A stretch of DNA of 64,000 bases from a virus. Positions within the stretch are counted from its first letter, which is position 1. Every line of letters starts with the position of its first letter. The notes under the pieces are model-generated. The model saw nothing but the letters and a program-made list of their open reading frames with translations, had not been told where the DNA came from and searched no databases. Both the position numbers and the translations under genes were made by a program. Location: the IMG/VR virus record IMGVR_UViG_3300009124_000002, positions 32,001 to 96,000 of that record, one strand, 5' to 3'. Of this stretch, positions 2,434 through 15,322 are shown in pieces.

Positions 2434-2434
2434 A

Positions 2435-2989
2435 TTACGCTACCTTTTCTACTTTAATATCATCATGGTGAAGGAAGATCGACTTCCCTTTGGATTTGAA
2501 TTTATGAGTTATCTTGGCAAACGTATGAACCCAACTTTTCAACATCTTCTGCCTTGGGTTCGAACCATCAATCTTACCCTTTGAATCTGATTCAACTGTC
2601 CCGTGAGTCAGAGAATCAAAACCCCAAAGGTGAAGTTCAGTGTAATTCTCTTCAGCATGTCCTAGAAGGTAGATGATTCCATCGTGCCCAGAGTTTCTTG
2701 TTCGAACCGAATCAGGAATCCATCGTAAGGTCGATTTATCAATCAATCCTTTTATCACCAAAGGTTTCACCATTGCTTCATATTTGATTCTTGCAATGAG
2801 AGGATCTTGAAGTTTGGTGTTATGATTCTGCATGTGCCTAAGAGGTCTCTTGTCATGTATGAATACACCCTTGTGCTTTATACCCTCTGTCCCAAAGTTG
2901 CAACCATACACATCACCAACAGGCTCATTCCGAAAGAACTTCTTGGAAGGACCATTACCAATCAAATGTGCGATTCTTTTTTCTGGCAT
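2435..2989 (-). CDS. Maf/CstII-like (DUF115-like) putative glycosyltransferase
   Basis: LIGNGPS, YGCN, ELHLWGFD motifs. Confidence 0.55.
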   Translation of the reverse strand: MPEKRIAHLIGNGPSKKFFRNEPVGDVYGCNFGTEGIKHKGVFIHDKRPLRHMQNHNTKLQDPLIARIKYEAMVKPLVIKGLIDKSTLRWIPDSVRTRNSGHDGIIYLLGHAEENYTELHLWGFDSLTHGTVESDSKGKIDGSNPRQKMLKSWVHTFAKITHKFKSKGKSIFLHHDDIKVEKVA

Positions 2990-3062
2990 AAATAAAGAAG
3001 TATTTATTATGTATATAGTGATGTCATGACTACACTAACAATACAAACGAAAGCAAAGTAAT

Positions 3063-3296
3063 ATGGAAACTGTAATTCAATTCTTGACTGAAAAGGGGTG
3101 GTTTGAATATGTCACCGCTGCCGTCACGATTGCTTCCGTTATCGCCAGTGTCACACCTACACCAAAGGAAGGCACTATCTGGGCAAAGGTCTACAAGGGT
3201 ATTGACTGGTTGGCGATTAACGTAGGTAAAGCCAAGGAAACCGGAGTAAAGCCCGTTGAGGCTCCTGCTCCAAAGGAAAAGAAGAAGAAGGGTTGA
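3063..3296 (+). CDS. small membrane protein, holin-like
   Basis: hydrophobic helix VTAAVTIASVIASVT-PTP and basic C-terminus; only clear plus-strand gene. Confidence 0.55.
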   Translation: METVIQFLTEKGWFEYVTAAVTIASVIASVTPTPKEGTIWAKVYKGIDWLAINVGKAKETGVKPVEAPAPKEKKKKG

Positions 3297-3632
3297 TTAC
3301 TTCTTCTTCTTAGGGGATAATTCCGCACTGCTTTTAGTGGTGCGGAATTTTTCATATTCTTGCTGATACACCGGAAACAGTAGATTCTCCAATGCTCTGA
3401 CGATTGCCTCTTCTTTCTGATCGTCATCAATCATGTATGCAATACCACTCATATCAAAAGCAGCATGAATACATTCATGCATCAGAGTATCAAATGCTTG
3501 TTCATCAGTCAGAGTATTGCGAATCTTGATTACCTTGTCTTCCAACTCATACAAACCATACTCACTTATCTTGCAGTATTTGATTTGAAAATCGACACCA
3601 GCAACAGATATTGATGATGGTCGGTATTTCAC
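3297..3632 (-). CDS. HExxH metallopeptidase-like protein
   Basis: TLMHECIHA motif. Confidence 0.65.
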   Translation of the reverse strand: MKYRPSSISVAGVDFQIKYCKISEYGLYELEDKVIKIRNTLTDEQAFDTLMHECIHAAFDMSGIAYMIDDDQKEEAIVRALENLLFPVYQQEYEKFRTTKSSAELSPKKKK

Positions 3633-3868
3633 TTGTTGTAAACCTTCCGCTCAAGTTGGCGAAAGCGTTTATCAGAATGCCAGATTTCATCGGTCTGTGC
3701 TTGGTAGATTCCCTCCACTGTCTGAACCTTTGTCCCCGCCTTGAGATGCAACGTAGGTGGCTGCCAAAGATTCAAATTGTTCACGTTCGGTGAGGAGTTG
3801 GTCGCGCAGGAGGTCAGCACGAAGGGCATCATTGCTGTTGCCAGAAGAACGGTATTTTTCAATTTCAT
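3629..3868 (-). CDS. lipoprotein, o-spanin (Rz1-like) candidate
   Basis: MKLKNTVLLATAMMPFVLTSC lipobox; overlaps upstream ORF in another frame. Confidence 0.5.
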   Translation of the reverse strand: MKLKNTVLLATAMMPFVLTSCATNSSPNVNNLNLWQPPTLHLKAGTKVQTVEGIYQAQTDEIWHSDKRFRQLERKVYNK

Positions 3869-3989
3869 TAATGAGTCCTTTCTCTCTTTCACGGTGGTCG
3901 TCGATTAAATCCCGATAGAAAGCCTTGTTCTTGAACGCAAGGTAGAGTTCAAGTGATTTCAAGACTGATTTGATAAGTCCGAATATCAT
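3687..3989 (-). CDS. hypothetical protein, i-spanin (Rz-like) candidate
   Basis: amphipathic N-terminus plus coiled coil; overlaps lipoprotein gene. Confidence 0.4.
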   Translation of the reverse strand: MIFGLIKSVLKSLELYLAFKNKAFYRDLIDDHREREKGLINEIEKYRSSGNSNDALRADLLRDQLLTEREQFESLAATYVASQGGDKGSDSGGNLPSTDR

Positions 3990-3995
3990 ATGGTT

Positions 3996-4346
3996 TTATT
4001 TAGTTAGACCCCAAGCGTAAACCCTGTTGTCGTGAATCTCTACTCTTTCTGCCCCGGTAACTGGAGTCTTGTCTGATAAGACAAAAGAGTCATACTTGTA
4101 TGGGTCGTAGAATACTCTTCTGCCCAGATAGCGAAGGCATTCCATATCGATGTCTTCTTTCAATTCACCACGAACATATGCATGGACATTCTTACGCTTC
4201 TCCTGAAGAACCCTTTCCCTGCCTCTTTGTGAGACAATGAATTTTGCTCCTTCGATTATCACTGAATCGCAATGACGAATCACCTTTCCCTTATGCCTCA
4301 CTGAGAGACATTTCTTGTGGAGGTTATAGTAGACATCGACCTTCAT
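3996..4346 (-). CDS. conserved phage hypothetical protein
   Basis: YYNLHKKCLSV...KRKNVHAYVRG pattern. Confidence 0.7.
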   Translation of the reverse strand: MKVDVYYNLHKKCLSVRHKGKVIRHCDSVIIEGAKFIVSQRGRERVLQEKRKNVHAYVRGELKEDIDMECLRYLGRRVFYDPYKYDSFVLSDKTPVTGAERVEIHDNRVYAWGLTK

Positions 4347-4912
4347 CGTATGGTTTTATTTATCCTATCCACGGCTCCACCTATAGCATAAAGAACACTA
4401 TCGAATCCACCTGACCCAAGCCCACCAAGAGTAGCTTGATTCCAAGGTTGCGGAAAGTTAACACCAATCCCACCATGTTCATAGAACTTTTCAATCTTAG
4501 CATCTGTATCATCAATCAGAATGGTCTGAGGATTGGCACAAAAATACTTTTCCTTTGTGAAGATTCGTTTCACCTTGGGAAAGTAACGGTCAAGCCACAT
4601 ACTCTTTCCAACAATGCAAAGGGGATTTCTTGATGGTGCAGTGCAGAATGCCATGTTCTCAATACCCACAAGATTCTCACAGTGCTCAATGAGTTCATCT
4701 GCCCATTCAAACTTATCGAGTCCATCCCAGAACTCTACGTTATCAGTGACCTTCCAGAATTCATCTGGAGTAATGTTCCATGCCTCTTCAATCTGGTATC
4801 CAGTGAATCCCTTCTCATAGGGATTCTCTCTATTGTGTGCCTTGCAGATTCCACCAACGAAATCAGCAACCACACCATCCATGTCAATGAGTATTTTCGC
4901 TTTGTTTTTCAT
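4343..4912 (-). CDS. 5'(3')-deoxyribonucleotidase, HAD family
   Basis: DMDGVVADF and LIDD motifs. Confidence 0.8.
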   Translation of the reverse strand: MKNKAKILIDMDGVVADFVGGICKAHNRENPYEKGFTGYQIEEAWNITPDEFWKVTDNVEFWDGLDKFEWADELIEHCENLVGIENMAFCTAPSRNPLCIVGKSMWLDRYFPKVKRIFTKEKYFCANPQTILIDDTDAKIEKFYEHGGIGVNFPQPWNQATLGGLGSGGFDSVLYAIGGAVDRINKTIR

Positions 4913-4914
4913 AA

Positions 4915-5496
4915 TCAGTTAAACATAAAGTGTTCCCATTCATCTCGGCAATCAATGCCAAGTCTTTGTAGTCTAAAGTTCAAATCCACTAGTGTTCTGG
5001 CACGAACCTCTTTACCCAGAGCATTCATGAAGGGATACTTGTGCCCCTTGTCCCGATTGCATCGTTTACATGCCAGAACCAAATTAAAGTCATCATTTGA
5101 ACCACCCTTGCACTTTGGATATGCATGGTCCTTTGTTGCCTGATCAAAGGGAATCTTCTTCAGGCAATACTGACAGACTGCATCATACAAGACATAGAGT
5201 TGCTTTCTTGTCGGCTGAGTGTTCTTCTTGAACTGAGGCATCTTGCTGTATGAAGGTATCAGAAGAATTGTGGGGACATACCAATTGTGCCGTACGGAAC
5301 TCATGTAGGGTTGGTCATCATGCATATTCAGAGAATGATTCCAGTCATCCCACTGGAGTGCATTGAAATCTTTATCCATACCTTTGCCACTAAACTTCAT
5401 CATATGCCGTATCACATTTCGTGCTGTAAAGAATCCTATTGGTGCATAGGTTGAATTCAGAACAAGGGTTGTCTTTCGATGTGGTTCAACTTTCAC
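4915..5496 (-). CDS. HNH endonuclease
   Basis: CQYC...DH..PKCKGG....NLVLACKRCN. Confidence 0.85.
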   Translation of the reverse strand: MKVEPHRKTTLVLNSTYAPIGFFTARNVIRHMMKFSGKGMDKDFNALQWDDWNHSLNMHDDQPYMSSVRHNWYVPTILLIPSYSKMPQFKKNTQPTRKQLYVLYDAVCQYCLKKIPFDQATKDHAYPKCKGGSNDDFNLVLACKRCNRDKGHKYPFMNALGKEVRARTLVDLNFRLQRLGIDCRDEWEHFMFN

Positions 5497-5763
5497 AAAT
5501 TATATATGAAAGATGCGAACAGAAAAAGGATAAAGACAATACCAAGAATGTCATCAATGTCTCTCGTTTCTTCTTGTGTGTGCTTGTTTTTCATTTTTTG
5601 ATTGATGCAAGAACCAATCCAATGTTTGCCATGGCATAAGACATCCAGACTATAGACCAAGGATAGTTCTTCTTTATGAGATAATATATTCCTGTTAATG
5701 CATACACAACAGCGACCGATCCGGGGAGGTAAATTGTAAACAGTTTATCAGTCATAAAGTATA

Positions 5764-5840
<77 letters not shown>

Positions 5841-5877
5841 TTTGTTTATTCTATTATAGTGGATTTAATTTTTGAAA

Positions 5878-7140
5878 TCAAGAGATGATTTCCTTGAGAA
5901 CCCTACCATCCTTAATGATTTCAATTGGACGGTTACCAGAGGTCATGAGCCGCTTCTCGGGATTGATACCCATAAGGTGATACAGAGTTGCTCCGTAATC
6001 AGCAGGGGTAACTAGATCTTCCTCTGGTTCGCTGCCAGTCATATCAGGTTTGCCATAGACAAATCCTCTCTTGACTCCACCACCAGCAAGTGCAATTCCA
6101 AAAAGCTTTGCCCAATGGTCACGACCAGCAGTTCGATTAATCTTTGGGGTGCGACCAAATTCAGAAGTCACGACCACCAGAGTTTCATCAAGCATACCCC
6201 GTTCATCAAGGTCGCGAATCAGTGCAGCATATGCTTTATCGAATTCAGGTTGCCATCTTGTGATTCCAGCCTCAATGCCATCGTGCATATCCCAACTCCC
6301 AAAGGTAACAGTGACATACCTTACTCCAGCTTCGACCAGACGACGAGAAAGAAGGAAACGAGAACCAGCAGCACCAGTTCCATAATTCTCTCGGGTCTTT
6401 GAATTCTCTGTCTTGAGGTCGAATGCTGCTCTTGCAGTTTCACTTGAAATCAGGTCATATGCCTGAGAGTAGAACTTGTCAACACCACTCATGACATCTG
6501 CCTTTTCTAGATTTGAAAAGTGATTGTCCACAATCGAGCGCATTGACCTGCGCTTGGCAAATCGATTGGTATCTACACCAGATGGTAGCCCAAGGTCTCT
6601 TACCTGAAAGTCACCAGATTCTGGATTTGAACCAAGCCCAAAGGGACCAAATGCAGTTGAGAGATAACCAGATCCACCATAATCATTTGCCTTGTTCGGA
6701 ATTGCCACATATGGTGGAATGTTGTTTCTTCCACCCAATTCATGTGCAACCACTGAACCAATACTAGGATATATGAGTGCTGGAGATGGGCGATATCCAG
6801 TCATCATGTTGTGCGTTCCTCTTTCATGTGCTGCTTCACCATGAGACATTGATTGAATCACGGTAATCTTGTCAGCAATCTTTGCAGTCTCACTTAGATT
6901 CTGTGAGAGTCTCAATCCAGCGACATTGGTATTCACTACACCCAAGGGACCACGATATTCAAGTGGAGCATCAGGAATTGGAATCCAGCTTTCCTGATGT
7001 GCCATGCCACCAGGAAGGAATATCTGAATCACACTCTTGGCACGAACCTTGAGATTTGACTCTGCTTGTGCCTTGAGAATAGATCCCATTGAGAGACCCA
7101 TCACGGAACCATTAAAAAGAAACGATCTTCTATTCATCAT
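5878..7140 (-). CDS. DUF1501 family protein with Tat signal
   Basis: NRRSFL; VIQIFLPGG; RRLVEAGVRYV; WDMH; SEFGRTP; RDHW; LAGGGVKRG. Confidence 0.9.
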   Translation of the reverse strand: MMNRRSFLFNGSVMGLSMGSILKAQAESNLKVRAKSVIQIFLPGGMAHQESWIPIPDAPLEYRGPLGVVNTNVAGLRLSQNLSETAKIADKITVIQSMSHGEAAHERGTHNMMTGYRPSPALIYPSIGSVVAHELGGRNNIPPYVAIPNKANDYGGSGYLSTAFGPFGLGSNPESGDFQVRDLGLPSGVDTNRFAKRRSMRSIVDNHFSNLEKADVMSGVDKFYSQAYDLISSETARAAFDLKTENSKTRENYGTGAAGSRFLLSRRLVEAGVRYVTVTFGSWDMHDGIEAGITRWQPEFDKAYAALIRDLDERGMLDETLVVVTSEFGRTPKINRTAGRDHWAKLFGIALAGGGVKRGFVYGKPDMTGSEPEEDLVTPADYGATLYHLMGINPEKRLMTSGNRPIEIIKDGRVLKEIIS

Positions 7141-7144
7141 AGTA

Positions 7145-8494
7145 TTAGGCGATAATGCCTTTCTGGACTTCTCCATGAACATCAGTCAGACGAAAGTCTC
7201 GACCATTGTAGCGATAAGTGAATTCCTTGAAGTCAAACCCAAGAAGTGTAAGGACTGTGGCATGAAGGTCGTGGACATGGCATGGATTTTCAACTGCCTT
7301 GTATCCAAGTTCATCAGTTGCTCCATATGCAGTCCCACCCTTGACACCACCACCGATCAGGGCAGTGGAGAATCCAGTGTGTTGATGAGCACGACCAAAA
7401 TAACCATTACGACCAGCACCATCACGATGAGGTGTTCTTCCAAATTCACCACCAAGAATGATAAGAGTATCATGGAGCATTCCACGTTGCTTGAGGTCAT
7501 CAATCAATGCAGTCAAGGGACCATCGATACCCTTCGCTCTTACTGTCAATGAAGTAAAGAGATTGTCATGCATATCCCAACCTCCGTTCCATGCCTGTAC
7601 AAAACGAACACCACGTTCAAGAAGTCTCCGGGCGATAAGAAACTGCTTGCCTGTATCTGTGTTTCCATAAGTATCCCTTACTTTCTTTTCTTCCTTACTT
7701 ACATCAAATGCCTCTGTTGCTTCAATTTGCATATTGTATGCAATCTCGTATGACTTGATTCTGTTCTCCAATTCAATATCTTTACCATTCAACTGCGAGT
7801 GCATGGTATTCATCTTAGCAAGGAGATCAAGTTTTCTTCTCTGCTCTTGAAGTGTTCCGCTTGTCTTGATGTTGGCAATCATTTGATTCACATCACGCAA
7901 ACGAGTATCGATTGGAGTTCCCTGATAGAGACCGGGAAGAAAGGCAGACTGCATACTCTCTGTGTATCTCTGAGCACCACCGGGAGCAAGAGAAACAAAA
8001 CCGGGGAGATTATCATTTGCCAAACCAAGACCATAGGATACCCATGAACCAAAGGAAGGGCGAGGTAATGAAATCTGTCCAGTATTGAACATACGAACAC
8101 CAACATCATGGGCAGGAACATCTGTCATCATTGAACGAACTACACAGATATCATCAGCGTGTTTTTGCAATTGAGGAAAGCAAGAAGACATCAAGAGACC
8201 AGACTGACCACAAGGAGTAAACTCAAAATCAGTGGCATGACCAAGACGATTGCCGTTGATCTTTTTGCCATCAAACTTTTCGAGTTCTGGTTTGTAATCC
8301 CACATATCCAGATGTGTTGATGCACCTTGTAGGAAGATGTGTAGAATTCTCTTTGCTTTTCCTTGAGGTGCAACTGCCTGTGCGTTCTCATTGAACATTG
8401 TGCTTGCAGCGATCGCACCAAGACCCATACCTGTTGAACGCAGAAATTCTCTACGGGAGGATGGAAGTGGTTTGATATTAGAGCATGTATTCAT
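7145..8494 (-). CDS. DUF1501 family protein with Tat signal
   Basis: SRREFL; HIFLQG..THLDMWDYKPEL; RRLLERGVRFVQ; WDMH; GEFGRTP; HVHDLHATVL. Confidence 0.9.
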   Translation of the reverse strand: MNTCSNIKPLPSSRREFLRSTGMGLGAIAASTMFNENAQAVAPQGKAKRILHIFLQGASTHLDMWDYKPELEKFDGKKINGNRLGHATDFEFTPCGQSGLLMSSCFPQLQKHADDICVVRSMMTDVPAHDVGVRMFNTGQISLPRPSFGSWVSYGLGLANDNLPGFVSLAPGGAQRYTESMQSAFLPGLYQGTPIDTRLRDVNQMIANIKTSGTLQEQRRKLDLLAKMNTMHSQLNGKDIELENRIKSYEIAYNMQIEATEAFDVSKEEKKVRDTYGNTDTGKQFLIARRLLERGVRFVQAWNGGWDMHDNLFTSLTVRAKGIDGPLTALIDDLKQRGMLHDTLIILGGEFGRTPHRDGAGRNGYFGRAHQHTGFSTALIGGGVKGGTAYGATDELGYKAVENPCHVHDLHATVLTLLGFDFKEFTYRYNGRDFRLTDVHGEVQKGIIA

Positions 8495-8495
8495 A

Positions 8496-11120
8496 TTAGT
8501 TAATATACATCGTCTCGTTTGACATCACCATGACATGAATGAATTGTTCAAATGGAGAGTATGTATCTTGTGGGGTTGATTGAATGAACTTGATTGCAAG
8601 CTTGGTTTCCATATCGGTTGGATTCCTTTGCAGGAGCAATTGATAGATTGCTTGTATCTTTCCCGGTTCATCGATTACCTTATCGAATCTGCTTGCGATT
8701 TCTTTTACTTTCACCATCATCATTGAATTATTTAACATGAACAAAGACTGTTGTGGAACGGATGACCGAAATCTCTTTCCTGTTGGGAGGTTTGGATCAG
8801 CCATATCGAAATTGGATAGAATCTCTGGAAGACGACGACGATCAATCTCACCAAAGATAGAACGAGCATTGGGGTATGGTGAATTAAACAGTTTGACTGG
8901 TCCTCCATGTGCCTTTTCAAAATTACCACCATTGGCAAAGAAGAAGAGAGAATCACGAATACCTTCAAACTCAAGGCGTCGAATATTCTGACGGTGCAAG
9001 AAGATGTTACCGGGGTCTTTGAGTTCCATCTTTCCATCTGCCTTACTTGATTGACGATATGTGCGACTTGTGACAATCAGACGATGCAACCTCTTGATGC
9101 TCCAGTTATTCTCCCTCAGATAATTTGAAAGAAATTCTAGTAGTTCTGGATGACTTGGGTCTTCTGCCTGAATCCCAAAGTCATCTGGTGTATCCACAAA
9201 ACCACGACCAAAGTGGTGCATCCAAATTCGATTTACAAAGGAACGTGTGGAGAGTGGATGTTCAATAATTGAATTTGCAAGTTCAAGTCTACCTGAAGTC
9301 TTGTCAGGATACTTTCCTCCATCTGGATCAAGGTATTCAATGAAAGAACGTGGGGCAGAATCACCAAGTTTTCTTGCATTTCCCAAAAGGAAGATACGAG
9401 AAGTCACTGGTCGATTCTCTGTAATCACCATACTACGTGGAGGCGTCACACTGCTTGCCCACTCATGGTCAATGAGTTTGGCGGTAACACGTTGAAGACC
9501 TCTTTGATATTGAGTCCTCTCGCGGTTGTTTAGAATCCTCCAGAAATTCTCAATATCACCAAGGTCACACGGACCTTTATCCTTGAATAGAATCTTATCA
9601 GCCTTCTTTTGAAGAGACGATAATGGCTTCTTATTGATCTTCTTTTCATAAGTTTCGTAGAAGAGTCTACCATACCATGCTGCAACCTGAACAGGAGTCT
9701 CTGCCTTTGCAAGACGAAGACCTCTCAGGATAATCTCATTAACCTTACGAATCTCTTCTTCTGATTTCTTTACTGATTTGCTTACTTTTACTAGTTGGTA
9801 AACTTTCCAGAAATCATCTTTGCTGTTCATTTCACGATTCCAGTTAGACATCATCCTACCAACAAGACCAGTCACCTTATCAACCTTATTAGTTCTGGAA
9901 TACTGCCCCTTGGCTTCATTCGGTACCTCATTGTAATAGTTGTGTGTATGGACGATATACTGAATAGAACCTTTGCGGAAATGGTCATACCATCTTGAAT
10001 ACTCCTTGCGTTTATACACTTGGATATCAGAAGCCAACTTTTTCTTCTTGGTGATATACTCATTAAATCCATTTGAACCAGTTGTGTCTTCTGTCATTGG
10101 AAGCTCAAATTCATTCGGTTCACGCACTGAACGAAAGATTCCATGTAGTGCATAGTAATCCTTCTGACTGATTGGATCGAACTTATGATCATGACACCTC
10201 GCACAAGTAACAGTCAATGAAAGGAATCCCTTGGTGATGACATCGATGCGATCATCAATCACATCATTTGCATTATTGTCACGACGACCAATAGTGATGA
10301 ACCCAAGCCCTCCTGTATCTGGTTTTGGAAGAAGGTCACCAGCAATCTGTTCCTGAATGAATCGATTGTAAGGCTTGTCTTCATGAAAGGAATCAATCAC
10401 ATAATCACGATATGACCATGCATAAACATAACGAGGATCATCACGACGATTATTGGCACCACCCTTGTAATCACTATAGCGAGCAACATCCAGCCAGTGT
10501 CTTGCCCATCTCTCTGCATATGCTCTGGATGAGAGAATCTCGTCTACGATTTTGTAATAGTTCTTTCCACCATTTTCAAATTCAGAAACCTGAAGTGGAG
10601 TAGGTGGTAATCCAGTCATATCAAAGTAGAGACGACGAATCAACTCTCTCTTTGTTGCTTCAGGCGAAAAGAGCGCACCTTGTTTCTTGAGACCATCGGC
10701 AATGAAGTTGTCAATAGGATTCTCCTGTTTGAAATCTGGAACTGTTGGAGTATATGCCTTCTTGAATGCCCAATGTGATTCCACCTCTTTACCCCAACGG
10801 GAACCTGATGCAGTGAAATTGGTGGGAAGCTTGGCACCATTCTTGATCCATGAAGCAAGGATGTTTCGATTTACTTCTCCAAGGTCTCTCTTTGGTGGCA
10901 TATCACCAGAGACAATGGCATTAAGCAGGACGTTGTCTTTGAGTGCTTTCTGAATGCCTTCCTTGGAGTCCAGTAATGTATCACCTTTGACTCTCTTTGC
11001 CTTGGATGAATGACACTCATAGCAGTTATTTGCGATAAGTGGACGAATTGCATTCTCAAAATCATCTGCACCAAAGACGAAACAAGCGGACAAGAATAGT
11101 ATTGATAATACAAGTTTCAT
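8496..11120 (-). CDS. planctomycete-type cytochrome c / DUF1549 / DUF1553 (PSD1) protein
   Basis: Sec signal; CYECH; HWAF; RRLYFDMTGLPPT; RHWLDVARY; CARCHDHKFDPI; VNRIWMHHFGRG; PSHPELL. Confidence 0.9.
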   Translation of the reverse strand: MKLVLSILFLSACFVFGADDFENAIRPLIANNCYECHSSKAKRVKGDTLLDSKEGIQKALKDNVLLNAIVSGDMPPKRDLGEVNRNILASWIKNGAKLPTNFTASGSRWGKEVESHWAFKKAYTPTVPDFKQENPIDNFIADGLKKQGALFSPEATKRELIRRLYFDMTGLPPTPLQVSEFENGGKNYYKIVDEILSSRAYAERWARHWLDVARYSDYKGGANNRRDDPRYVYAWSYRDYVIDSFHEDKPYNRFIQEQIAGDLLPKPDTGGLGFITIGRRDNNANDVIDDRIDVITKGFLSLTVTCARCHDHKFDPISQKDYYALHGIFRSVREPNEFELPMTEDTTGSNGFNEYITKKKKLASDIQVYKRKEYSRWYDHFRKGSIQYIVHTHNYYNEVPNEAKGQYSRTNKVDKVTGLVGRMMSNWNREMNSKDDFWKVYQLVKVSKSVKKSEEEIRKVNEIILRGLRLAKAETPVQVAAWYGRLFYETYEKKINKKPLSSLQKKADKILFKDKGPCDLGDIENFWRILNNRERTQYQRGLQRVTAKLIDHEWASSVTPPRSMVITENRPVTSRIFLLGNARKLGDSAPRSFIEYLDPDGGKYPDKTSGRLELANSIIEHPLSTRSFVNRIWMHHFGRGFVDTPDDFGIQAEDPSHPELLEFLSNYLRENNWSIKRLHRLIVTSRTYRQSSKADGKMELKDPGNIFLHRQNIRRLEFEGIRDSLFFFANGGNFEKAHGGPVKLFNSPYPNARSIFGEIDRRRLPEILSNFDMADPNLPTGKRFRSSVPQQSLFMLNNSMMMVKVKEIASRFDKVIDEPGKIQAIYQLLLQRNPTDMETKLAIKFIQSTPQDTYSPFEQFIHVMVMSNETMYIN

Positions 11121-11126
11121 ATACTA

Positions 11127-11134
11127 TATTTATA
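11127..11134 (-). promoter_or_regulatory. T4-type late promoter
   Basis: exact TATAAATA 6 nt upstream of the ATG at 11120. Confidence 0.75.
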
Positions 11135-11139
11135 AAAGC

Positions 11140-11604
11140 TTATTCTGTGAGTATTCGTCCTATGATTTGTTCTTTGTTGATGAAATAGTAATCGCTTATC
11201 TTACTGTTATCACCAAAGATAAGGTATTGATCGGGTTTCATCTCAAAGGTGAAATTTGTATTCAAGGGGGTGGGATAGTATAAGATATCTATGACTTCTT
11301 TACCATCTACTAGAATTACTGAATTTGAAATTGAAATTGTGGCAGGGTATCGGGCAATGACTCTCTTGATGACACGAACCATATCGCCATCCTCCACTAT
11401 ATCAGCAACAACAATATCACCAACATAGTAGTTGGGGCAATCCTTGCGAATCCATATGGTTTCCCATGACTTCAATGTTGGTTCCATACTCTTCCCAGAT
11501 ACCACAATGAAAGCAAAAAAGTGCTGGGAGAGATACCCCAGCACTGTTGTGATACCCAAGAGGGCAATGAGAAACCAGAATCTTACTCCATGCTTTCTCG
11601 ACAT
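11140..11604 (-). CDS. signal peptidase I (S26)
   Basis: N-terminal TM helix, SGKSMEPTL (Ser), VIKRV (Lys), GDN. Confidence 0.85.
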   Translation of the reverse strand: MSRKHGVRFWFLIALLGITTVLGYLSQHFFAFIVVSGKSMEPTLKSWETIWIRKDCPNYYVGDIVVADIVEDGDMVRVIKRVIARYPATISISNSVILVDGKEVIDILYYPTPLNTNFTFEMKPDQYLIFGDNSKISDYYFINKEQIIGRILTE

Positions 11605-11721
11605 TTTCTTTTGTCCAGTTGACGCCTTGCTTTTTTCGTATTCTTCTTGTATGCCTTCTCCTGACTGCGAGAAGTTGAAAAGGGAAGACCCTTTGATTTT
11701 GCTACTTCATCTTTCATTGTT

Positions 11722-12042
11722 CTATTTATTCTTTCGTATTGTAATGACGATGGTGCCCACGATGGCAATTGAAATTCCCATCTGAGTAGTGATGAGTGCT
11801 TTTGAAATCCCCTTTGCTAGATTATCGATAGATGATGTCCCTCCAACTGAAAGTGCTTGAAATGTCTGCATCATACCCAAGACAGTTCCCAGAAGACCAA
11901 CAAGAGGGACAGAATTGACAACGATATTTGCCATCCAGTGATCACTAGAAAATGCAAGAGCATATGCCCAACATCCCAATAAGGCGATGACGATCATTGT
12001 CCAACCACCCGAGATCCAGTAATCGATTATTGTTTGTATCAT
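11722..12042 (-). CDS. MotA/TolQ/ExbB proton channel family protein (minimal)
   Basis: PLVGLLGTVLGM..TF and GISKALITT.MG motifs. Confidence 0.85.
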   Translation of the reverse strand: MIQTIIDYWISGGWTMIVIALLGCWAYALAFSSDHWMANIVVNSVPLVGLLGTVLGMMQTFQALSVGGTSSIDNLAKGISKALITTQMGISIAIVGTIVITIRKNK

Positions 12043-12143
12043 TAAGATGAACAACCGGAGCCAAGAGGACAAACATAAACCGAAGAACCAACGTTCTTCA
12101 ACTCTTTGCCACAGCGATCACATTTTCGTTTTTGTTTTTTCAT
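12042..12143 (-). CDS. 33-aa Cys-rich micro-protein
   Basis: MKKQKRKCDRCGKELKNVGSSVYVCPLGSGCSS*, TAATG-coupled to the ExbB-like gene (hand translated). Confidence 0.45.
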   Translation of the reverse strand: MKKQKRKCDRCGKELKNVGSSVYVCPLGSGCSS

Positions 12144-12146: not shown

Positions 12147-12563
12147 TGGTGGAGGCGGCGGGAGTCGAACCCGCGTCCAATACTACCTAGTATGCTCTTC
12201 TACACGTTTAGCTCGACTCTCTATACTCCTGATGCATCATCGAGCATCCTCATCAGGAGGTTGAACCAAGTGTCTTAGGTGATGGTGTCTGGTTCCATCC
12301 AGTCATCACAGCAGCCTCTGCTTTAGTAACCGCGAACTCAACGAGGCATTAAGTCCACGATCTGGTTATGCAACCACTTCAGCGACTTCGGCTCCAGCCA
12401 GAACAGCATCAGCATTGTTCATGATGGCAGCAGCTTCGTCAAGAAGACCGGCAATGTTATCTTCGCCATTTAGTTTTTTTAGTCGATTTTTAATGAGACC
12501 ATTCGACCAACTCATACGTGCTTCTTCATTCATCAGCAATACTGTCGAAACCAGTACGCCCCC
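12147..12563 (-). ncRNA. ssrA: tmRNA
   Basis: 5' GGGGGCGTACTGGTTTCGAC, 3' GGGTTCGACTCCCGCCGCCTCCACCA with G3.U pair; tag ORF 12467-12366. Confidence 0.95.
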
Positions 12564-12568
12564 GAAAT

Positions 12569-12658
12569 TGGCGGTGAGAGAGGGATTTGAACCCCCGGTT
12601 GCTTTTACACAACTCCTGTTTTCAAGACAGGTGCATTAAACCGCTCTGCCATCTCACC
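12569..12658 (-). tRNA. tRNA-Ser(UGA)
   Basis: CCTGT-CT-TGA-AA-ACAGG, long variable arm, CCA. Confidence 0.95.
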
Positions 12659-12662
12659 AAAG

Positions 12663-12739
12663 TGGTCGGAAAGACAGGATTTGAACCTGCGACATCCTGC
12701 TCCCAAAGCAGGTGCTCTACCAAACTGAGCTACTCTCCG
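12663..12739 (-). tRNA. tRNA-Pro(UGG)
   Basis: CCTGC-TT-TGG-GA-GCAGG, CCA. Confidence 0.95.
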
Positions 12740-12743
12740 AAAA

Positions 12744-12818
12744 TGGCATCCCGTACCAGAATCGAACTGGTGTTCTCGCCGTGAAAGGGCGATGTCCTAA
12801 CCGCTAGACGAACGGGAC
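12744..12818 (-). tRNA. tRNA-Glu(UUC)
   Basis: TCGCC-CT-TTC-AC-GGCGA, CCA. Confidence 0.95.
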
Positions 12819-12829
12819 TTAATGTTAAA

Positions 12830-12919
12830 TGGCGGCTGGAAAGAGATTCGAACTCTTGGTACCCTTTCGAGTACGACAGTTTAGCAAACTGTTGCTTTAG
12901 ACCACTCAGCCATCCAACC
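12830..12919 (-). tRNA. tRNA-Ser(GCU)
   Basis: ACAGT-TT-GCT-AA-ACTGT, long variable arm, CCA. Confidence 0.95.
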
Positions 12920-12925
12920 TGAAAT

Positions 12926-13002
12926 TGGTTGGCGCAGTAGGATTTGAACCTACGACCTTTCGATTATCAATCGAATGCTCTAACCAACTGAGCTATGCGC
13001 CA
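12926..13002 (-). tRNA. tRNA-Ile(GAU)
   Basis: TTCGA-TT-GAT-AA-TCGAA, CCA. Confidence 0.95.
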
Positions 13003-13009
13003 ATGAAAA

Positions 13010-13085
13010 TGGAGCCAGATGTCAGATTCGAACTGACGACCGACGGTTTACAAAACCGTTGCTCTACCAACTGAGCTAATCTGGC
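13010..13085 (-). tRNA. tRNA-Thr(UGU)
   Basis: ACGGT-TT-TGT-AA-ACCGT, CCA. Confidence 0.95.
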
Positions 13086-13087
13086 AT

Positions 13088-13164
13088 TGGTGGACCCTAT
13101 AGGGGTTGAACCTATGACCTACCGATTATGAGTCGGGTGCTCTGACCAACTGAGCTAAGGGTCC
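13088..13164 (-). tRNA. tRNA with CAU anticodon, probably tRNA-Ile2 (lysidine)
   Basis: GGACCCTTAGCTCAG...CGACTCATAATCG resembles bacterial Ile2; CCA. Confidence 0.85.
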
Positions 13165-13173
13165 ATTAGAAAT

Positions 13174-13249
13174 TGGTGCCCCCACTAGGACTCGAACCTA
13201 GAACCACCTGATTAAAAGTCAGATACTCTACCAATTGAGCTATAAGGGC
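13174..13249 (-). tRNA. tRNA-Lys(UUU)
   Basis: TCTGA-CT-TTT-AA-TCAGG, CCA. Confidence 0.95.
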
Positions 13250-13254
13250 GGAAG

Positions 13255-13330
13255 TGGTAGCAGGAGTGGGATTTGAACCCACGGTCTTCTGGATATGAGC
13301 CAGACGAGATAACCACTTCTCCATCCTGCA
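13255..13330 (-). tRNA. tRNA-Met(CAU), initiator-like
   Basis: U1xU72 mismatch, A11-U24, CAT anticodon, CCA. Confidence 0.85.
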
Positions 13331-13334
13331 TTAA

Positions 13335-13407
13335 AATTGAGGGCGGGACTCGAACCCGCAACCTCTTCCGTGACAGGGAAGTACTCTACACTTTGAGTTA
13401 CGTCACT
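13335..13407 (-). pseudogene. degenerate tRNA-Asp(GUC)
   Basis: intact D, anticodon (CTTCC-CT-GTC-AC-GGAAG) and T arms; acceptor AGTGACG/CCTCAAT has 2 mismatches and no CCA. Confidence 0.75.
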
Positions 13408-14186: not shown

Positions 14187-14384
14187 TTATGCCCGACGAA
14201 AAACAATATCTGAGGCTTCCCATAATGGTTGTCGGAGTTCCTCAAACATTTCATGTCGGTCAGCATCATCATGATGGAATCGATCAGCTTGATCTGCCGC
14301 ATAATCAGCAAGTGCAGTGAAGAAGTTTTCAAGGGCTTGACCATTCATCTCGTCCAGCATTTTGTATATTTCAATCTTACTCAT
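14187..14384 (-). CDS. hypothetical protein
   Basis: 65-aa co-oriented ORF. Confidence 0.6.
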   Translation of the reverse strand: MSKIEIYKMLDEMNGQALENFFTALADYAADQADRFHHDDADRHEMFEELRQPLWEASDIVFRRA

Positions 14385-14386
14385 AA

Positions 14387-15268
14387 TTATGCTTTCTTTA
14401 CGTAAACCACACCATCGATTGTTATTTCATTTGGGAATTGAGACACAGGCTCTTCTGTATCCCCAGAGACCACTGTATCCCCAGAGACCACTGTATCCCC
14501 AGAGACCACTGTATCCCCAGAGACCACTGCGTTCCAAGAGAGCACTGCACCCCCATAGACCTTTGCGTTCCCATAGACCCATGCGTCCCCAGAGACCTTT
14601 GCGAACCCAAAGACCAATGCGTTCCCATAGACCTCAGCGTCCTCATAGACCTCGGCACTTCCAAAGACCTCGGCACTTCCAAAGACCTCGGCGCCCCCAG
14701 AGACCTTTGCGTCCTCATAGACGCATGCAACGCCATAGACCTCAGCGTCCTCATAGACCTCGGCACTTCCAAAGACCTCGGCACTTCCAAAGACCTCGGC
14801 GCCCCCAGAGACCTTTGCGTCCTCATAGACGCATGCAACGCCATAGACCTCAGCGTCCTCATAGACCTCGGCACTTCCAAAGACCTCGGCACTTCCAAAG
14901 ACCTCGGCGCCCCCAGAGACCTTTGCGTCCTCATAGACGCATGCAACGCCATAGACCTCAGCGTTCCCATAGACCTTTGCGTTCCCATAGACCTCAGCGT
15001 CCTCATAGACCTCGGCACTTCCAAAGACCTCGGCGCCCCCAGAGACCTTTGCGTCCTCATAGACCAATGCATCGCCATAGACCTTTGCGTTCCCATAGAC
15101 CCATGCGTTCCCATAGACCCATGCATCACCATCATGACTCAGATTCTCCTCGGACTCGATGTATCCCCCAAGGTCACCTTTCTTTACGTCGCCAAAGTCC
15201 CGCAGGGCTTTGATGCGTCGGAGGTTTGGGTTGTCTGGATGGGCTTCGTTCGTGATTTCGTATTTCAT
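14387..15268 (-). CDS. hexapeptide-repeat (left-handed beta-helix-like) protein
   Basis: RIKALRDFGDVKKGDLGGYIESEENLSH followed by many AxVYG(N/D) hexapeptides. Confidence 0.85.
   Translation of the reverse strand: MKYEITNEAHPDNPNLRRIKALRDFGDVKKGDLGGYIESEENLSHDGDAWVYGNAWVYGNAKVYGDALVYEDAKVSGGAEVFGSAEVYEDAEVYGNAKVYGNAEVYGVACVYEDAKVSGGAEVFGSAEVFGSAEVYEDAEVYGVACVYEDAKVSGGAEVFGSAEVFGSAEVYEDAEVYGVACVYEDAKVSGGAEVFGSAEVFGSAEVYEDAEVYGNALVFGFAKVSGDAWVYGNAKVYGGAVLSWNAVVSGDTVVSGDTVVSGDTVVSGDTEEPVSQFPNEITIDGVVYVKKA
14455..15125. repeat. coding tandem repeat of 18-bp units
   Basis: 4 exact CTGTATCCCCAGAGACCA copies (14455-14526); three exact 108-bp copies (14625-14948). Confidence 0.95.
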
Positions 15269-15293
15269 AGTGTTGTTTCTCATTACGTAGATC

Positions 15294-15322
15294 ATACTAG
15301 ACCATTTCTGGATTCCCGTCAA
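15294..15322 (-). promoter_or_regulatory. early promoter cassette
   Basis: GGGG-TTGACG-17-TAGTAT then CGTAATGAGAAACAAC. Confidence 0.75.

What the first reader, a model, noticed from the sequence alone, without database searches (positions are those of the whole stretch)
5878..12042. Phage-borne PVC-type periplasmic heme module under a late promoter, with its own signal peptidase and ExbB
Seen: a tight operon with 1-4 nt gaps encodes an 874-aa Sec-exported protein with two CxxCH sites (CYECH, CARCH) and DUF1549/DUF1553 motifs, then two divergent twin-arginine DUF1501 paralogues. An exact TATAAATA lies 6 nt before the first ATG. A signal peptidase I and a minimal MotA/TolQ/ExbB gene are immediately upstream, and the block is bracketed by tmRNA and tRNA-Arg. 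Known: DUF1549/1553-DUF1501 pairs are highly expanded and functionally uncharacterised in Planctomycetes and Verrucomicrobia; TATAAATA is the T4 gp55 late promoter. Inference: the phage has domesticated a complete envelope redox or hydrolytic complex and its export support, and expresses it late. Possible roles are envelope remodelling, superinfection exclusion or nutrient scavenging. I do not know this module as a described phage auxiliary system, and it points to a PVC host.
Basis: partly seen in the sequence, partly recalled or inferred. Interest (0 to 1): 0.88.

Follow-up and report, generated by a model that had tools for sequence, protein, structure and literature searches.

The report
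Phage-borne PSCyt-DUF1501 exported enzyme module
An uncultured T4-like phage carries intact, well-conserved copies of an exported haem-motif protein and two exported enzymes of unknown function that are typical of Verrucomicrobia and Planctomycetes, probably switched on late in infection; such genes turn out to be common in uncultured phages.

Summary
An 874-aa Sec-type protein carries CYECH, CARCH, DUF1549 and DUF1553. It is followed by two Tat-signal DUF1501 proteins that are 31% identical to each other. An S26 signal peptidase and a 106-aa ExbB-like protein lie upstream, and the block sits between a tmRNA and tRNA-Arg.

The record is a T4-like phage with DNA polymerase, UvsX, portal, sheath and a gp55 homologue. 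TATAAATA is not enriched in the window alone. In the whole 119-kb record it occurs 14 times against 2.3 expected, and it precedes portal, tail tube, sheath and baseplate genes. A late promoter is therefore plausible.

Two independent IMG/VR assemblies share the junctions, so a chimera is unlikely. dN/dS is 0.11-0.14.

The first DUF1501 is the usual neighbour of this PSCyt type. A complex model supports docking on the DUF1553 C-terminus (0.85 against 0.00 for the best control). The second DUF1501 matches the one in the PVC four-gene cluster but lacks that cluster's partners.

At least 138 IMG/VR stretches encode relatives of the second DUF1501. Neither DUF1501 query found a full-length match in GenBank phages (one partial hit), and no searched paper describes phage copies. 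This scan has met such phage genes on other DNA before.

The signal peptidase is linked to the block only within this lineage, and the ExbB-like gene is dispensable. The chemistry is unknown. A PVC host is likely but not shown.

The parts
12147..12563 (-). Phage tmRNA; the upstream border of the block. Ten tRNA genes follow at 12569-13407.
   Evidence: ARAGORN; Rfam RF00023, 120.6 bits against a gathering score of 47.
11722..12042 (-). Minimal MotA/TolQ/ExbB-like membrane protein of about 106 aa with three hydrophobic stretches. The ORF runs to 12072 from a TTG; the start is probably the ATG at 12042.
   Evidence: Pfam MotA_ExbB at 9.3e-19. NCBIfam tolQ and exbB matches are far below their cut-offs. 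It is 76% identical in relative L182, whose copy begins at the equivalent Met. It is absent from the 99%-identical relative L001. No GenBank phage match.
11583..11717 (-). Small, very basic 44-aa ORF that overlaps the signal peptidase start.
   Evidence: Read from the sequence. Its aligned part is 100% identical in L001 (39 aa) and L182 (42 aa). No family was assigned.
11140..11604 (-). Type I signal peptidase (S26), 154 aa. It carries SMEPTL (Ser), KRVIA (Lys) and GDNS boxes.
   Evidence: Pfam Peptidase_S26 at 3e-12; TIGR02227 at 55.7 bits against a cut-off of 47. 100% identical in L001 and 82% in L182. dN/dS against L182 is 0.29. Only close relatives (75-100%) were found in 5.8 billion proteins. 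The names of the catalytic boxes are recalled.
11127..11134 (-). TATAAATA box, a T4 gp55-type late-promoter consensus, 6 nt before the P0001 ATG.
   Evidence: Genome-wide enrichment and the same spacing before the portal and tail-tube genes. gp55 homologue in the record. The box is kept before the equivalent slot in L001 and L182.
8496..11120 (-). P0001: exported cytochrome-c-like N-domain (CYECH ... MPP), PSCyt2/DUF1549 (CARCHDH) and PSD1/DUF1553; 874 aa.
   Evidence: Pfam. Both CxxCH motifs are conserved in relatives. AF2 model has pLDDT 83.8 and is all-alpha. No PDB fold match at E<=0.001. dN/dS is 0.11.
7145..8494 (-). P0002: Tat-signal DUF1501 (alkaline-phosphatase superfamily), the cognate partner type of P0001.
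   Evidence: Pfam at 1.8e-128. Adjacent to a PSCyt2/PSD1 gene in most of 80 cellular loci. Complex model scores 0.85 against 0.00. Lies in a clade with no GTDB member.
5878..7140 (-). P0003: second Tat-signal DUF1501, orthologue type of the PVC four-gene cluster. The longest ORF starts at 7182; the probable start is 7140 or 7137.
   Evidence: Pfam at 9.1e-103. Cellular context. AF2 model and fold search point to the AP superfamily, with 74 matches at E<=0.001. dN/dS against L182 is 0.14. Lies in a clade with no GTDB member.
5764..5840 (-). tRNA-Arg(tct); the downstream border of the block.
   Evidence: ARAGORN; Rfam tRNA, 72.7 bits.

Best explanation
This is a host-derived auxiliary module of an uncultured T4-like phage. 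It has long been kept in phages and lies in the variable region between the tRNA/tmRNA array and tRNA-Arg.

**Shown**
- Three intact exported proteins are encoded back to back behind a TATAAATA box. In this genome the same box marks virion genes.
- P0001 is a haem-motif, all-helical PSCyt2/PSD1 protein.
- P0002 is the DUF1501 type that normally sits beside such a protein in Verrucomicrobiota and Planctomycetota.
- P0003 is the DUF1501 type of the separate PVC four-gene cluster.

**Supported by a model only**
- P0002 docks with its helical cap (residues about 144-256) on the conserved C-terminal part of the PSD1 domain (692-874).

**Inferred**
- gp55-directed late transcription starts at or just before the ATG.
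- P0001 goes through Sec and receives haem from the host machinery.
- The two DUF1501 enzymes fold with their metal in the cytoplasm, cross by Tat and are cut at AQA by a type I signal peptidase, possibly the phage's own.
- In the periplasm the P0001-P0002 pair acts as a metal-dependent phospho- or sulfo-ester hydrolase or transferase of the alkaline-phosphatase superfamily. P0003, which lacks its own partners, plugs into the host's four-gene-cluster complex.
- The benefit to the phage is most likely to sustain or boost a host periplasmic scavenging or envelope-processing activity while host expression fails.
- The host is probably a PVC bacterium, with Verrucomicrobiota slightly favoured.

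The substrate and the chemistry are unknown.
For: **Phage identity.** PHROG matches to DNA polymerase, UvsX, DnaB-like helicase and RNR, and to portal, tail tube, sheath, baseplate wedge, prohead protease and regA. A gp55 homologue is present at 40% identity, E 4e-19. The best GenBank DNA polymerase match is only 48.5% identical, in Kyanoviridae phage C48C1.

**Not a chimera.** IMG/VR contig L001 is 99% identical over window 1-11707 but has a different tRNA array and order beyond it. L182 is syntenic at 47-100% amino-acid identity. GC content is unremarkable.

**Selection.** P0001 shows 20.5 synonymous against 8.5 non-synonymous differences (0.11). P0002 shows 5 against 2 (0.12). P0003 against L182 shows 65.5 against 34.5 (0.14).

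**Promoter.**

**Pairing.** In 80 cellular P0002-type loci the neighbour is usually a PSCyt2/PSD1 gene.

**Complex model.** ipSAE was 0.85 (runs 0.84-0.86) against 0.00 for the best of 3 controls. The runs agree in at least 69% of contacts and the partner pLDDT is at least 86. In calibration the mark was reached by 58 of 80 solved complexes and 2 of 110 mismatched pairs. These counts hold only roughly here, because my own alignments and three chains were used. No like structure exists in the PDB by sequence or by fold.

**P0003 type.** In Limnoglobus roseus it is followed by a PPC protein and then a PSCyt2/PSD1 protein. In most of 80 cellular loci a distant PSCyt hit lies 3.5-4.5 kb downstream.

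**AP-superfamily fold.** Foldseek gives 74 PDB matches at E<=0.001, including LtaS, sulfatases and alkaline phosphatase.

**Family-invariant residues.** The His, Asp and Arg columns are kept in both phage copies.

**Viral spread.**
- 11 IMG/VR loci hold P0002-type genes.
- 138 of 161 IMG/VR stretches encode P0003-type relatives.
- There are 19 clades without cellular members in a tree of 344 sequences.
- The P0002 and P0003 clades have SH-aLRT 99 and hold no GTDB genome.
Against: - No expression, export, haem or activity data exist.
- The box also precedes regA, and it is only 6 nt from the ATG, which would require a nearly leaderless mRNA. Read-through from the signal peptidase gene cannot be excluded, since no terminator-like site lies between them.
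- The P0003 model is only moderate (pLDDT 66.5) and the TM-scores are 0.3-0.4.
- The nucleophile of DUF1501 is not known.
- The donor phylum is unresolved in both trees. Cellular sampling was capped at the best 80 of about 600 matched stretches per scan. The metagenome proteins inside the 'viral' clades (P0007-P0013, P0127-P0139) have unknown context.
- P0003's counterpart of the P0002 interface region is poorly conserved, so whether it uses P0001 at all is open.
- Other viral DUF1501 genes rarely have the box: 2 of 164.
- The LSAC at residues 10-13 of P0001 could be a lipobox rather than a signal-peptidase-I site. It is not conserved in relatives.
Confidence: 0.6

Rival explanations
1. The five genes from ExbB to P0003 are one functional unit. 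On this view the phage brings its own signal peptidase, and a proton-channel protein, specifically to mature and serve the exported module.
For: - The genes are adjacent on one strand.
- Both DUF1501 signals end in AQA, a type I cleavage site.
- The signal peptidase is kept next to the slot in both IMG/VR relatives, at 100% and 82% identity, with dN/dS 0.29.
- The peptidase is a lineage-specific form with no close cellular relative in the word-based search.
Against: - The peptidase lies upstream of, and outside, the TATAAATA-led unit.
- It was found in none of the other viral DUF1501 loci: only 2 loci hit it, and only 2 relatives were found.
- The ExbB-like gene is absent from the 99%-identical relative L001.
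- ExbB-type proteins energise TonB/Tol systems and are not part of Sec or Tat (established knowledge, recalled).
- In L182 the peptidase stays while PSCyt and P0002 are replaced.
Confidence: 0.2
2. The module serves envelope remodelling late in infection, not nutrient supply. Possible roles are destroying or masking a surface receptor or glycan (superinfection exclusion, or avoiding loss of progeny on debris) or helping lysis.
For: - The late-type box is shared with virion genes.
- In other viral contigs the pair lies next to tail-fibre-like genes (L002; L016).
- A cell-wall hydrolase and a KDO-8-P-synthase-like gene lie nearby.
- The closest folds include LtaS and YejM, which act on envelope lipids and polymers.
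Against: - Nothing here links the proteins to any envelope substrate.
- The fold matches are generic for the superfamily, and sulfatases and phosphatases rank equally.
- In cells the families are hugely expanded and sit near sulfatases and carbohydrate-binding domains, which was read as substrate use (He 2017, PMC5615132, passages read).
Confidence: 0.25
3. The host is not a PVC bacterium. It could be, for example, a Bacteroidota member that also has such modules, and the genes say little about host range.
For: - Phage genes show no Shine-Dalgarno enrichment: 13% against 17% in the control.
- PSCyt/DUF1501 genes occur outside PVC: Acidobacteriota, Armatimonadota and Bacteroidales rows appear, and earlier notes report the same.
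- The phage clades branch outside all sampled cellular clades.
Against: - By their record titles, most of the 160 best GTDB loci are Verrucomicrobiota or Planctomycetota; I did not count them. Only one is Bacteroidales.
- The highest identities are to Verrucomicrobiota: 53-54% for P0002 and up to 63% for P0003.
Confidence: 0.2
4. The block is an assembly chimera or cellular contamination inside a viral bin.
For: The record is an uncultured, incomplete contig with a CheckV completeness of 66%. The genes have no PHROG family.
Against: - The same junctions appear in two other metagenome assemblies.
- Phage genes flank the block on both sides within the contig.
- GC content is even.
- The exact proteins were seen on several contigs.
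- A phage promoter box sits inside the block.
Confidence: 0.03

Closest known systems
Two-gene DUF1501 + PSCyt1/PSCyt2/PSD1 module of Planctomycetes, Verrucomicrobia and Lentisphaerae (Kamneva et al. 2012, PMC3542564; passages read)
   Same: Same Pfam families, the same Sec and Tat signals, the same CxxCH motifs and the same adjacency of the two genes. The function is unknown there too.
   Different: - It is carried by a T4-like phage, behind a late-type promoter box.
- The N-terminal haem domain is too diverged for the PSCyt1 model.
- The phage copies form their own clades at 58-75% identity, while the best cellular match is 51-54%.
- A second DUF1501 of another type is appended on the same strand. 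That arrangement was not seen in 160 cellular loci; the nearest case is L109, in divergent orientation.
Four-gene DUF1501 / PPC / PSCyt1-Big_2-PSCyt2-PSD1 / further PSCyt cluster of PVC bacteria (Kamneva et al. 2012)
   Same: P0003 is 55-63% identical to the DUF1501 of this cluster across two phyla. In Limnoglobus roseus the order DUF1501, then PPC, then PSCyt2/PSD1 was confirmed.
   Different: The phage has only the DUF1501 gene of that cluster. It has no PPC protein and no matching PSCyt protein.
PSCyt-encoding genes of freshwater Verrucomicrobia MAGs (He et al. 2017, PMC5615132; passages read)
   Same: The PSCyt2 gene lies next to a gene of a family of unknown function. The products are predicted to be periplasmic.
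   Different: That study covers cellular genomes only. It has no phage copies, and no carbohydrate-binding module is present in P0001.
Classical phage auxiliary genes for exported nutrient-scavenging proteins, such as cyanophage pstS and phoA (recalled, not searched here)
   Same: A T4-like phage carries a host-type periplasmic protein that may relieve a nutrient bottleneck.
   Different: The family and partner protein differ, the substrate is unknown, and the promoter is late-type. No GenBank phage carries a full-length DUF1501.
Alkaline-phosphatase superfamily enzymes: LtaS, type I sulfatases, alkaline phosphatase and YejM
   Same: The fold of the P0003 model matches them at Foldseek E 2e-6 to 5e-4. 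There are weak Pfam echoes of Sulfatase and Phosphodiest in relatives.
   Different: - There is no significant sequence match to any PDB chain; the best is an arylsulfatase at E 0.41.
- No CxPxR or other known nucleophile motif was identified (the motif name is recalled).
- These enzymes need a haem-motif partner, which none of the listed enzymes has.

Membership tests
DUF1501 (PF07394) | Full-length match above Pfam's gathering score | tested here: met
   P0002 scores 429.5 bits and P0003 344.8 bits against a cut-off of 27, both over profile positions 1-390.
DUF1501 (PF07394) | Twin-arginine signal at the N-terminus, common in the family according to Kamneva 2012 | tested here: met
   SRREFL in P0002 and NRRSFL in P0003, each followed by a hydrophobic stretch and AQA. 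These were read by eye; no predictor was run.
DUF1501 (PF07394) | Family-invariant His, Asp and Arg columns retained | tested here: met
   The invariant columns of A1 (23 sequences) and A2 (22 sequences) include the phage sequence, for example WDxH, EFGRTP and GRxH.
PSCyt2/PSD1 proteins (PF07583 + PF07587) | Both domains present in order and above their cut-offs | tested here: met
   233.4 and 222.4 bits against cut-offs of 29.8 and 28.5.
PSCyt2/PSD1 proteins (PF07583 + PF07587) | Conserved CxxCH inside PSCyt2 | tested here: met
   CARCH at residue 306. The motif is CARCH in 49 of 53 homologue ORFs, CSRCH or CAQCH in 3, and missing in 1 truncated ORF. C306, C309, H310, D311 and H312 are invariant in A3.
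PSCyt2/PSD1 proteins (PF07583 + PF07587) | Covalent haem actually bound | not testable with these tools
   Only the motifs are seen. The AF2 model has pLDDT below 50 at residues 310-313.
PSCyt1 (PF07635) N-terminal cytochrome c domain | Match to the PSCyt1 model | tested here: not met
   P0001 has no PSCyt1 hit at E<=0.01, only Cytochrome_CBB3 at 20.6 bits, below the cut-off of 27. C33, C36, H37, M74 and P75 are invariant in A3, so it works like a class I c-type domain but is not filed as PSCyt1.
DUF1501 + PSCyt module (Kamneva 2012) | DUF1501 gene adjacent to a PSCyt2/PSD1 gene | tested here: met
   A 1-nt gap separates P0001 and P0002. The same adjacency holds in most of 80 cellular loci.
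DUF1501 + PSCyt module (Kamneva 2012) | The two products form a complex | tested here: inconclusive
   The model supports binding: 0.85 against 0.00 for the best control, with calibration of 58 of 80 solved complexes and 2 of 110 mismatched pairs, which holds only roughly here. It is a prediction, not a measurement.
T4-type late transcription unit | gp55-type sigma factor encoded by the phage | tested here: met
   G000 100501-100890, 40% identical to T4 gp55, E 4.3e-19.
T4-type late transcription unit | TATAAATA box upstream, enriched and tied to virion genes | tested here: met
   14 occurrences against 2.34 expected. The box lies before portal (6 nt), tail tube (6 nt), sheath (67 nt) and baseplate wedge (23 nt).
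T4-type late transcription unit | Late transcript starting at the box | not testable with these tools
   No transcript data are available. gp33 and gp45 homologues were not searched for.
Type I signal peptidase (S26) | Match above the curated cut-off, with Ser and Lys boxes | tested here: met
   TIGR02227 at 55.7 bits against a cut-off of 47. SMEPTL and KRVIA are present; the box names are recalled.
ExbB/TolQ/MotA | Full-length equivalog match and a partner ExbD/TolR/MotB gene | tested here: not met
   The best matches are 46.3 bits against a cut-off of 221 (tolQ) and 35.6 against 206 (exbB). Only the C-terminal channel helices are covered. No ExbD-like ORF lies nearby. The protein resembles the channel core but is not a member.

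The most novel reading that the evidence does not exclude
DUF1501 enzymes, with or without their PSCyt partner, may be among the commonest unrecognised auxiliary genes of large phages that infect Verrucomicrobiota and Planctomycetota. On this reading, phages supply a labile or rate-limiting catalytic subunit that docks on host PSCyt/PSD1 scaffolds, much as cyanophages supply PsbA. This phage's compact late-expressed pair, P0001-P0002, would be a self-sufficient minimal version of the system. That would make one of the largest orphan protein systems of PVC bacteria testable with three genes.
Probability: 0.3. Interest if true: 0.75.

Novelty: new variant of a known kind. Interest (0 to 1): 0.55.

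Why it matters
PSCyt/PSD1 and DUF1501 proteins are present in dozens of copies in many Verrucomicrobia and Planctomycetes. No function has been assigned since they were described in 2004-2012.

Phages keep only genes that pay. Here the phage copies have their own old clades, strong purifying selection and presence on well over a hundred viral contigs. That argues the enzymes do something limiting during infection.

This phage offers a minimal set: one scaffold, its cognate enzyme, an orphan enzyme and a predicted interface. The set can be expressed and assayed. The genes also give a host clue for a T4-like lineage that has no cultured member.

Tried and rejected
- **PHROGs.** None of P0001, P0002, P0003 or P0005 matched any family.
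- **GenBank phages (50,697 records).** P0001, P0002 and P0005 found nothing. P0003 gave one partial hit covering 26% of the query. P0004 gave two marginal Enterococcus phage hits.
- **PDB by sequence.** P0001 matched nothing. The best match for P0002 was an arylsulfatase at E 0.41.
- **Fold search with the P0001 model.** 0 matches at E<=0.001; the top rows have TM below 0.13 and are meaningless.
- **NCBIfam.** No family for the three module proteins.
- **Portal search in four other DUF1501-bearing viral records.** 0 of 4 matched. They are fragments, 13-23% complete, and a fifth record (L020) is not held, so this shows nothing.
- **Is the box general to viral DUF1501 genes?** TATAAATA lies within 200 nt upstream in only 2 of 164 viral genes, against 0 of 84 cellular ones, so the late box is specific to this lineage.
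- **Metagenome scan for the P0002 clade.** Only one close locus was found (L263, 60%). It has the L002-type order and no genes shared with this phage.
- **Donor phylum.** It could not be resolved in either tree.
- **Lipoprotein reading of P0001 (LSAC).** Considered; the motif is not conserved in relatives.
- **Virion-protein reading.** Set aside because all three proteins carry export signals.
- **Papers.** No paper holds both DUF1501 and DUF1553. The 12 papers with DUF1501 and the 5 with DUF1549, DUF1553, PSCyt2 or 'PSD1 domain' include no phage example, apart from a weak CDD hit to a 61-aa Pseudomonas phage ORF. Two wider searches added nothing.
- **Supplements closed.** Supplementary figures S13/S14 of Kamneva 2012 and Text S1 and Fig. 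S7 of He 2017 could not be seen. They may hold cluster classifications that bear on the typing of P0002 and P0003.

Full report
**What is there.** The block lies on the minus strand of the window. Reading 5' to 3' on that strand, it holds the following:
- a tmRNA (12147-12563; Rfam 120.6 bits), preceded by ten tRNA genes
- a 106-116-aa MotA/ExbB-like membrane protein (11722-12072; probable start 12042)
- a 44-aa basic ORF (11583-11717)
- an S26 signal peptidase (11140-11604)
- a 19-nt gap that holds TATAAATA (11127-11134)
- P0001 (8496-11120, 874 aa)
- P0002 (7145-8494, 449 aa)
- P0003 (5878 to 7140 or 7137, about 420 aa)
- tRNA-Arg (5764-5840)

Pfam gives PSCyt2/DUF1549 and PSD1/DUF1553 for P0001. 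Each of P0002 and P0003 is a full-length DUF1501. P0001 begins with a hydrophobic signal and holds CYECH (residue 33) and CARCH (residue 306). P0002 and P0003 carry SRREFL and NRRSFL twin-arginine motifs, each followed by AQA. The two DUF1501 proteins are 31% identical.

**Is it a phage, and is the join real?**

PHROG scans find a T4-type set:
- DNA polymerase, UvsX, DnaB-like helicase and ribonucleotide reductase
- portal, tail tube, tail sheath, baseplate wedge and prohead protease
- a head-tail adaptor and regA

A homologue of the T4 late sigma factor gp55 lies at G000 100501-100890 (40% identity, E 4e-19). The window is part of a 119,003-bp viral record that CheckV puts at 66% complete. 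Its DNA polymerase is at most 48.5% identical to any GenBank phage. The best match is a Kyanoviridae record with no stated host, and cyanophages follow.

Two other metagenome assemblies carry the same region.
- **L001/L003** is 99% identical over window 1-11707. It has another tRNA set (Ser-Gly-Pro before the tmRNA), lacks the ExbB-like gene, and is arranged differently beyond that point.
- **L182** is syntenic at 47-100% amino-acid identity.

GC content is even across the block. A chimeric join is therefore very unlikely.

**The promoter.** In the window alone TATAAATA is not enriched: 3 matches against 1.23 expected, and 15 of 100 shuffles reach 3. In the whole record it occurs 14 times against 2.34 +/- 1.37 in 100 Markov-1 simulations (maximum 6). 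Twelve of the 14 are on the coding strand. It is also the commonest 8-mer in the 40 nt upstream of ORF starts, present in 6 of 146 windows.

Its distance to the next start codon is:

| Gene | Distance (nt) |
|---|---|
| portal | 6 |
| tail tube | 6 |
| tail sheath | 67 |
| baseplate wedge | 23 |
| regA | 7 |
| P0001 | 6 |

The box is kept in front of the same slot in L001 and L182. Together with gp55, this supports late, gp55-type transcription.

Two cautions apply. A 6-nt spacing implies an almost leaderless mRNA. It is also consistent with the lack of Shine-Dalgarno enrichment in this phage (13% of starts against 17% in a control). Read-through from the peptidase gene is not excluded, because no terminator-like site lies between the two genes.

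**Selection and age.** dN/dS values are:
- P0001 against L001: 0.11 (20.5 synonymous, 8.5 non-synonymous differences)
- P0002 against L001: 0.12 (5 and 2)
- P0003 against L182: 0.14 (65.5 and 34.5)
- the peptidase against L182: 0.29

The protein searches give a graded series of relatives. For P0002 they run 75, 74, 72, 66, 60, 59 and 58% identical. For P0003 they run 85, 82 and 69-63%. Below these lies the mass of cellular sequences, at about 50-57% and 58-64%, named mostly as Verrucomicrobiota where a name exists.

In quick maximum-likelihood trees:
- P0002 sits in a clade of 10 with SH-aLRT 99. The clade includes IMG/VR contigs L001 and L002. It lies outside a 99-supported clade of 59 mostly cellular sequences.
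- P0003 sits in a clade of 16 with SH-aLRT 99. The clade includes L001, L182 and L183. No GTDB genome is in it, and its position among the Verrucomicrobiota and Planctomycetota clades is unresolved.
- L183 carries T4-type baseplate genes about 50% identical to those of this phage.

Limits on these trees: only the best 80 of about 600 matched cellular stretches were kept per scan. The context of the metagenome proteins inside these clades could not be seen.

**What the three genes are.** In 80 cellular loci found with the P0002 profile, the neighbour is usually one PSCyt2/PSD1 gene, in either order. This is the two-gene module of Kamneva et al. 2012 (PMC3542564, passages read).

In most of 80 cellular loci found with the P0003 profile, a distant PSCyt2/PSD1 hit (21-30% to P0001) lies 3.5-4.5 kb downstream. 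In the complete genome of Limnoglobus roseus the order is DUF1501, then an 869-aa PPC-domain protein, then a PSCyt2/PSD1 protein. This is Kamneva's four-gene cluster.

So the phage trio is a cognate pair plus an orphan enzyme from another cluster type. A same-strand trio was not seen in the 160 cellular loci. The nearest case, L109, has the two types side by side in divergent orientation.

**Structure and interaction.**

*P0001.*
- The AF2 model is confident (pLDDT 83.8, pTM 0.78) and almost all-helical.
- It has no PDB match at E<=0.001 and no PDB relative by sequence.
- C33, C36, H37, M74 and P75 are invariant in 30 relatives. This fits a class I c-type haem site with a Met ligand (the ligand assignment is recalled knowledge).
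- C306, C309, H310, D311, H312 and D315 are also invariant.
- The model is uncertain exactly at 310-313.

*P0003.* The model is moderate (pLDDT 66.5). It matches 74 PDB chains at E<=0.001. Those I saw listed are all from the alkaline-phosphatase superfamily: LtaS, sulfatases, alkaline phosphatase, YejM and a phospholipase C.

*Complex of P0001 and P0002.*
- I ran a complex prediction with the two P0001 domains (116-345 and 560-874) and mature P0002.
- The score was 0.85 (runs 0.84, 0.85, 0.86) against 0.00 for the best of three controls.
- The runs agree in at least 69% of contacts, and the partner pLDDT is at least 86.
- In calibration the mark was reached by 58 of 80 solved complexes and 2 of 110 mismatched pairs. 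Those counts hold only roughly here, because my own alignments and three chains were used.
- The interface joins PSD1 residues 692-874, including the conserved C-terminal N868-E869 motif, to P0002 residues 144-256. That stretch contains many columns invariant in the P0002 type.
- The same stretch is poorly conserved in P0003, so P0003 probably has a different partner.
- This is a model's confidence, not a measurement.

**How common it is in phages.** GenBank phages (50,697 records) hold no full-length relative of P0001, P0002 or P0003, and PHROGs has no family for them.

IMG/VR is different.
- 11 loci encode P0002-type proteins.
- 138 of 161 matched stretches encode P0003-type relatives, on contigs of up to 177 kb.
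- Of the 78 loci kept (leaving out L181, a duplicate of L001), 52 hold two to four DUF1501 genes. Only 3 hold any PSCyt-like hit.
- Neighbours in two sampled loci are phage-like: an ATPase, HNH and other endonucleases, minor tail and tail assembly proteins, and thymidylate synthase. L002 has collagen-like tail fibre genes.
- A FastTree of 344 sequences has 19 clades without cellular members. This points to repeated capture and long retention.
- The late box is not general: 2 of 164 viral DUF1501 genes have it within 200 nt.

Earlier notes of this scan report phage-borne DUF1501 or PSCyt-DUF1501 genes on other DNA many times. So within the scan this is a repeat, with new details here.

**Signal peptidase and ExbB.** The peptidase passes the NCBIfam equivalog cut-off and keeps its Ser and Lys boxes. 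It has only close relatives (75-100%) in the large protein collection. It stays next to the slot in both relatives.

It lies outside the box-led unit, however, and is absent from all other viral DUF1501 loci. In L182 it remains while PSCyt and P0002 are replaced by a 275-aa ORF with no Pfam family and a divergent DUF1501.

The ExbB-like protein matches only the channel helices, far below the equivalog cut-offs. It has no ExbD-like neighbour and is missing from L001. A functional tie of the peptidase to the two AQA-ending Tat signals is reasonable but unproven. The ExbB link is not supported.

**Mechanism and verdict.** The best-supported reading is a host-derived, late-expressed periplasmic enzyme module. 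A haem-motif helical scaffold carries its cognate alkaline-phosphatase-superfamily enzyme on the PSD1 C-terminus. A second enzyme probably works with host partners.

- **Shown:** gene content, phage context, conservation, motif statistics, and spread among viral contigs.
- **Modelled:** the P0001-P0002 interface and the fold.
- **Inferred:** late leaderless transcription, export routes, processing, the type of chemistry, the benefit to the phage, and a PVC host.

The published descriptions of the module cover cellular genomes only. Kamneva 2012 and He 2017 were read as passages only, and their supplements could not be seen. No searched paper reports phage copies.

I rate this a new variant of a known kind. 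It is of moderate interest because the function is still unknown and the scan has met the theme repeatedly. It has real value as a compact test system.

Noticed in passing
G000 whole record; window 11127-11134, 40636-40643, 58785-58792: TATAAATA sits 6-7 nt before the ATG of the portal, tail tube, regA and P0001 genes. Phage starts show no Shine-Dalgarno enrichment (13% against 17% in a control). This suggests nearly leaderless late mRNAs in this T4-like lineage.
   Followed up: partly
window 12147-13407: The phage carries a tmRNA (Rfam 120.6 bits; ARAGORN predicts an unusually long tag peptide) followed by ten tRNA genes. The 99%-identical relative L001 has a different tRNA set next to the same tmRNA.
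   Followed up: partly
window 1412-2185 (-) and 679-1296 (-): A DAHP_synth_1 family gene (possibly KDO-8-phosphate synthase; 1.7e-53) and a SleB-type cell wall hydrolase (3e-14) lie a few kb downstream of the module. With them are an L5 gp82-like gene, an NT5C nucleotidase and an HNH endonuclease.
   Followed up: no
L001:1693-5933 (IMGVR_UViG_3300021964_010058): The near-identical relative carries a second, different DUF1501 plus PSCyt1/PSCyt2/PSD1 pair (52% and 35% identical to P0002 and P0001) upstream of its tRNA array. One phage can therefore hold two pairs plus the orphan DUF1501.
   Followed up: partly
L182:7820-10001 (IMGVR_UViG_3300032087_004395): In a syntenic relative, the slot behind the TATAAATA box holds a 275-aa ORF with no Pfam family and a long-branch DUF1501 (47% to P0002) instead of PSCyt plus P0002. 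The P0003-type gene (92%) and the signal peptidase (82%) are kept. This looks like cassette exchange at a fixed site.
   Followed up: partly
L217, L220, L224, L229, L234, L238, L241, L242, L250, L258 and others: Many IMG/VR contigs, several of them over 100 kb, carry three or four DUF1501 paralogues in a row with no PSCyt gene. Of 78 loci, 52 have at least two.
   Followed up: partly
window 11583-11717 (-): A 44-aa, very basic ORF overlaps the start of the signal peptidase gene. Its aligned part is 100% identical in both relatives, although neighbouring genes differ.
   Followed up: no
window 50585-51991 (-) and 35897-39672 (-): One gene matches phrog_24024 with a weaker queuine tRNA-ribosyltransferase-like hit. 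Cytidylyltransferase and phrog_455 genes are also present. These may be nucleotide or DNA modification functions.
   Followed up: no
window 14362-15370: Long overlapping ORFs on both strands lie around a gene with YdcK beta-solenoid repeats. GC skew here is strongly negative (-0.21).
   Followed up: no
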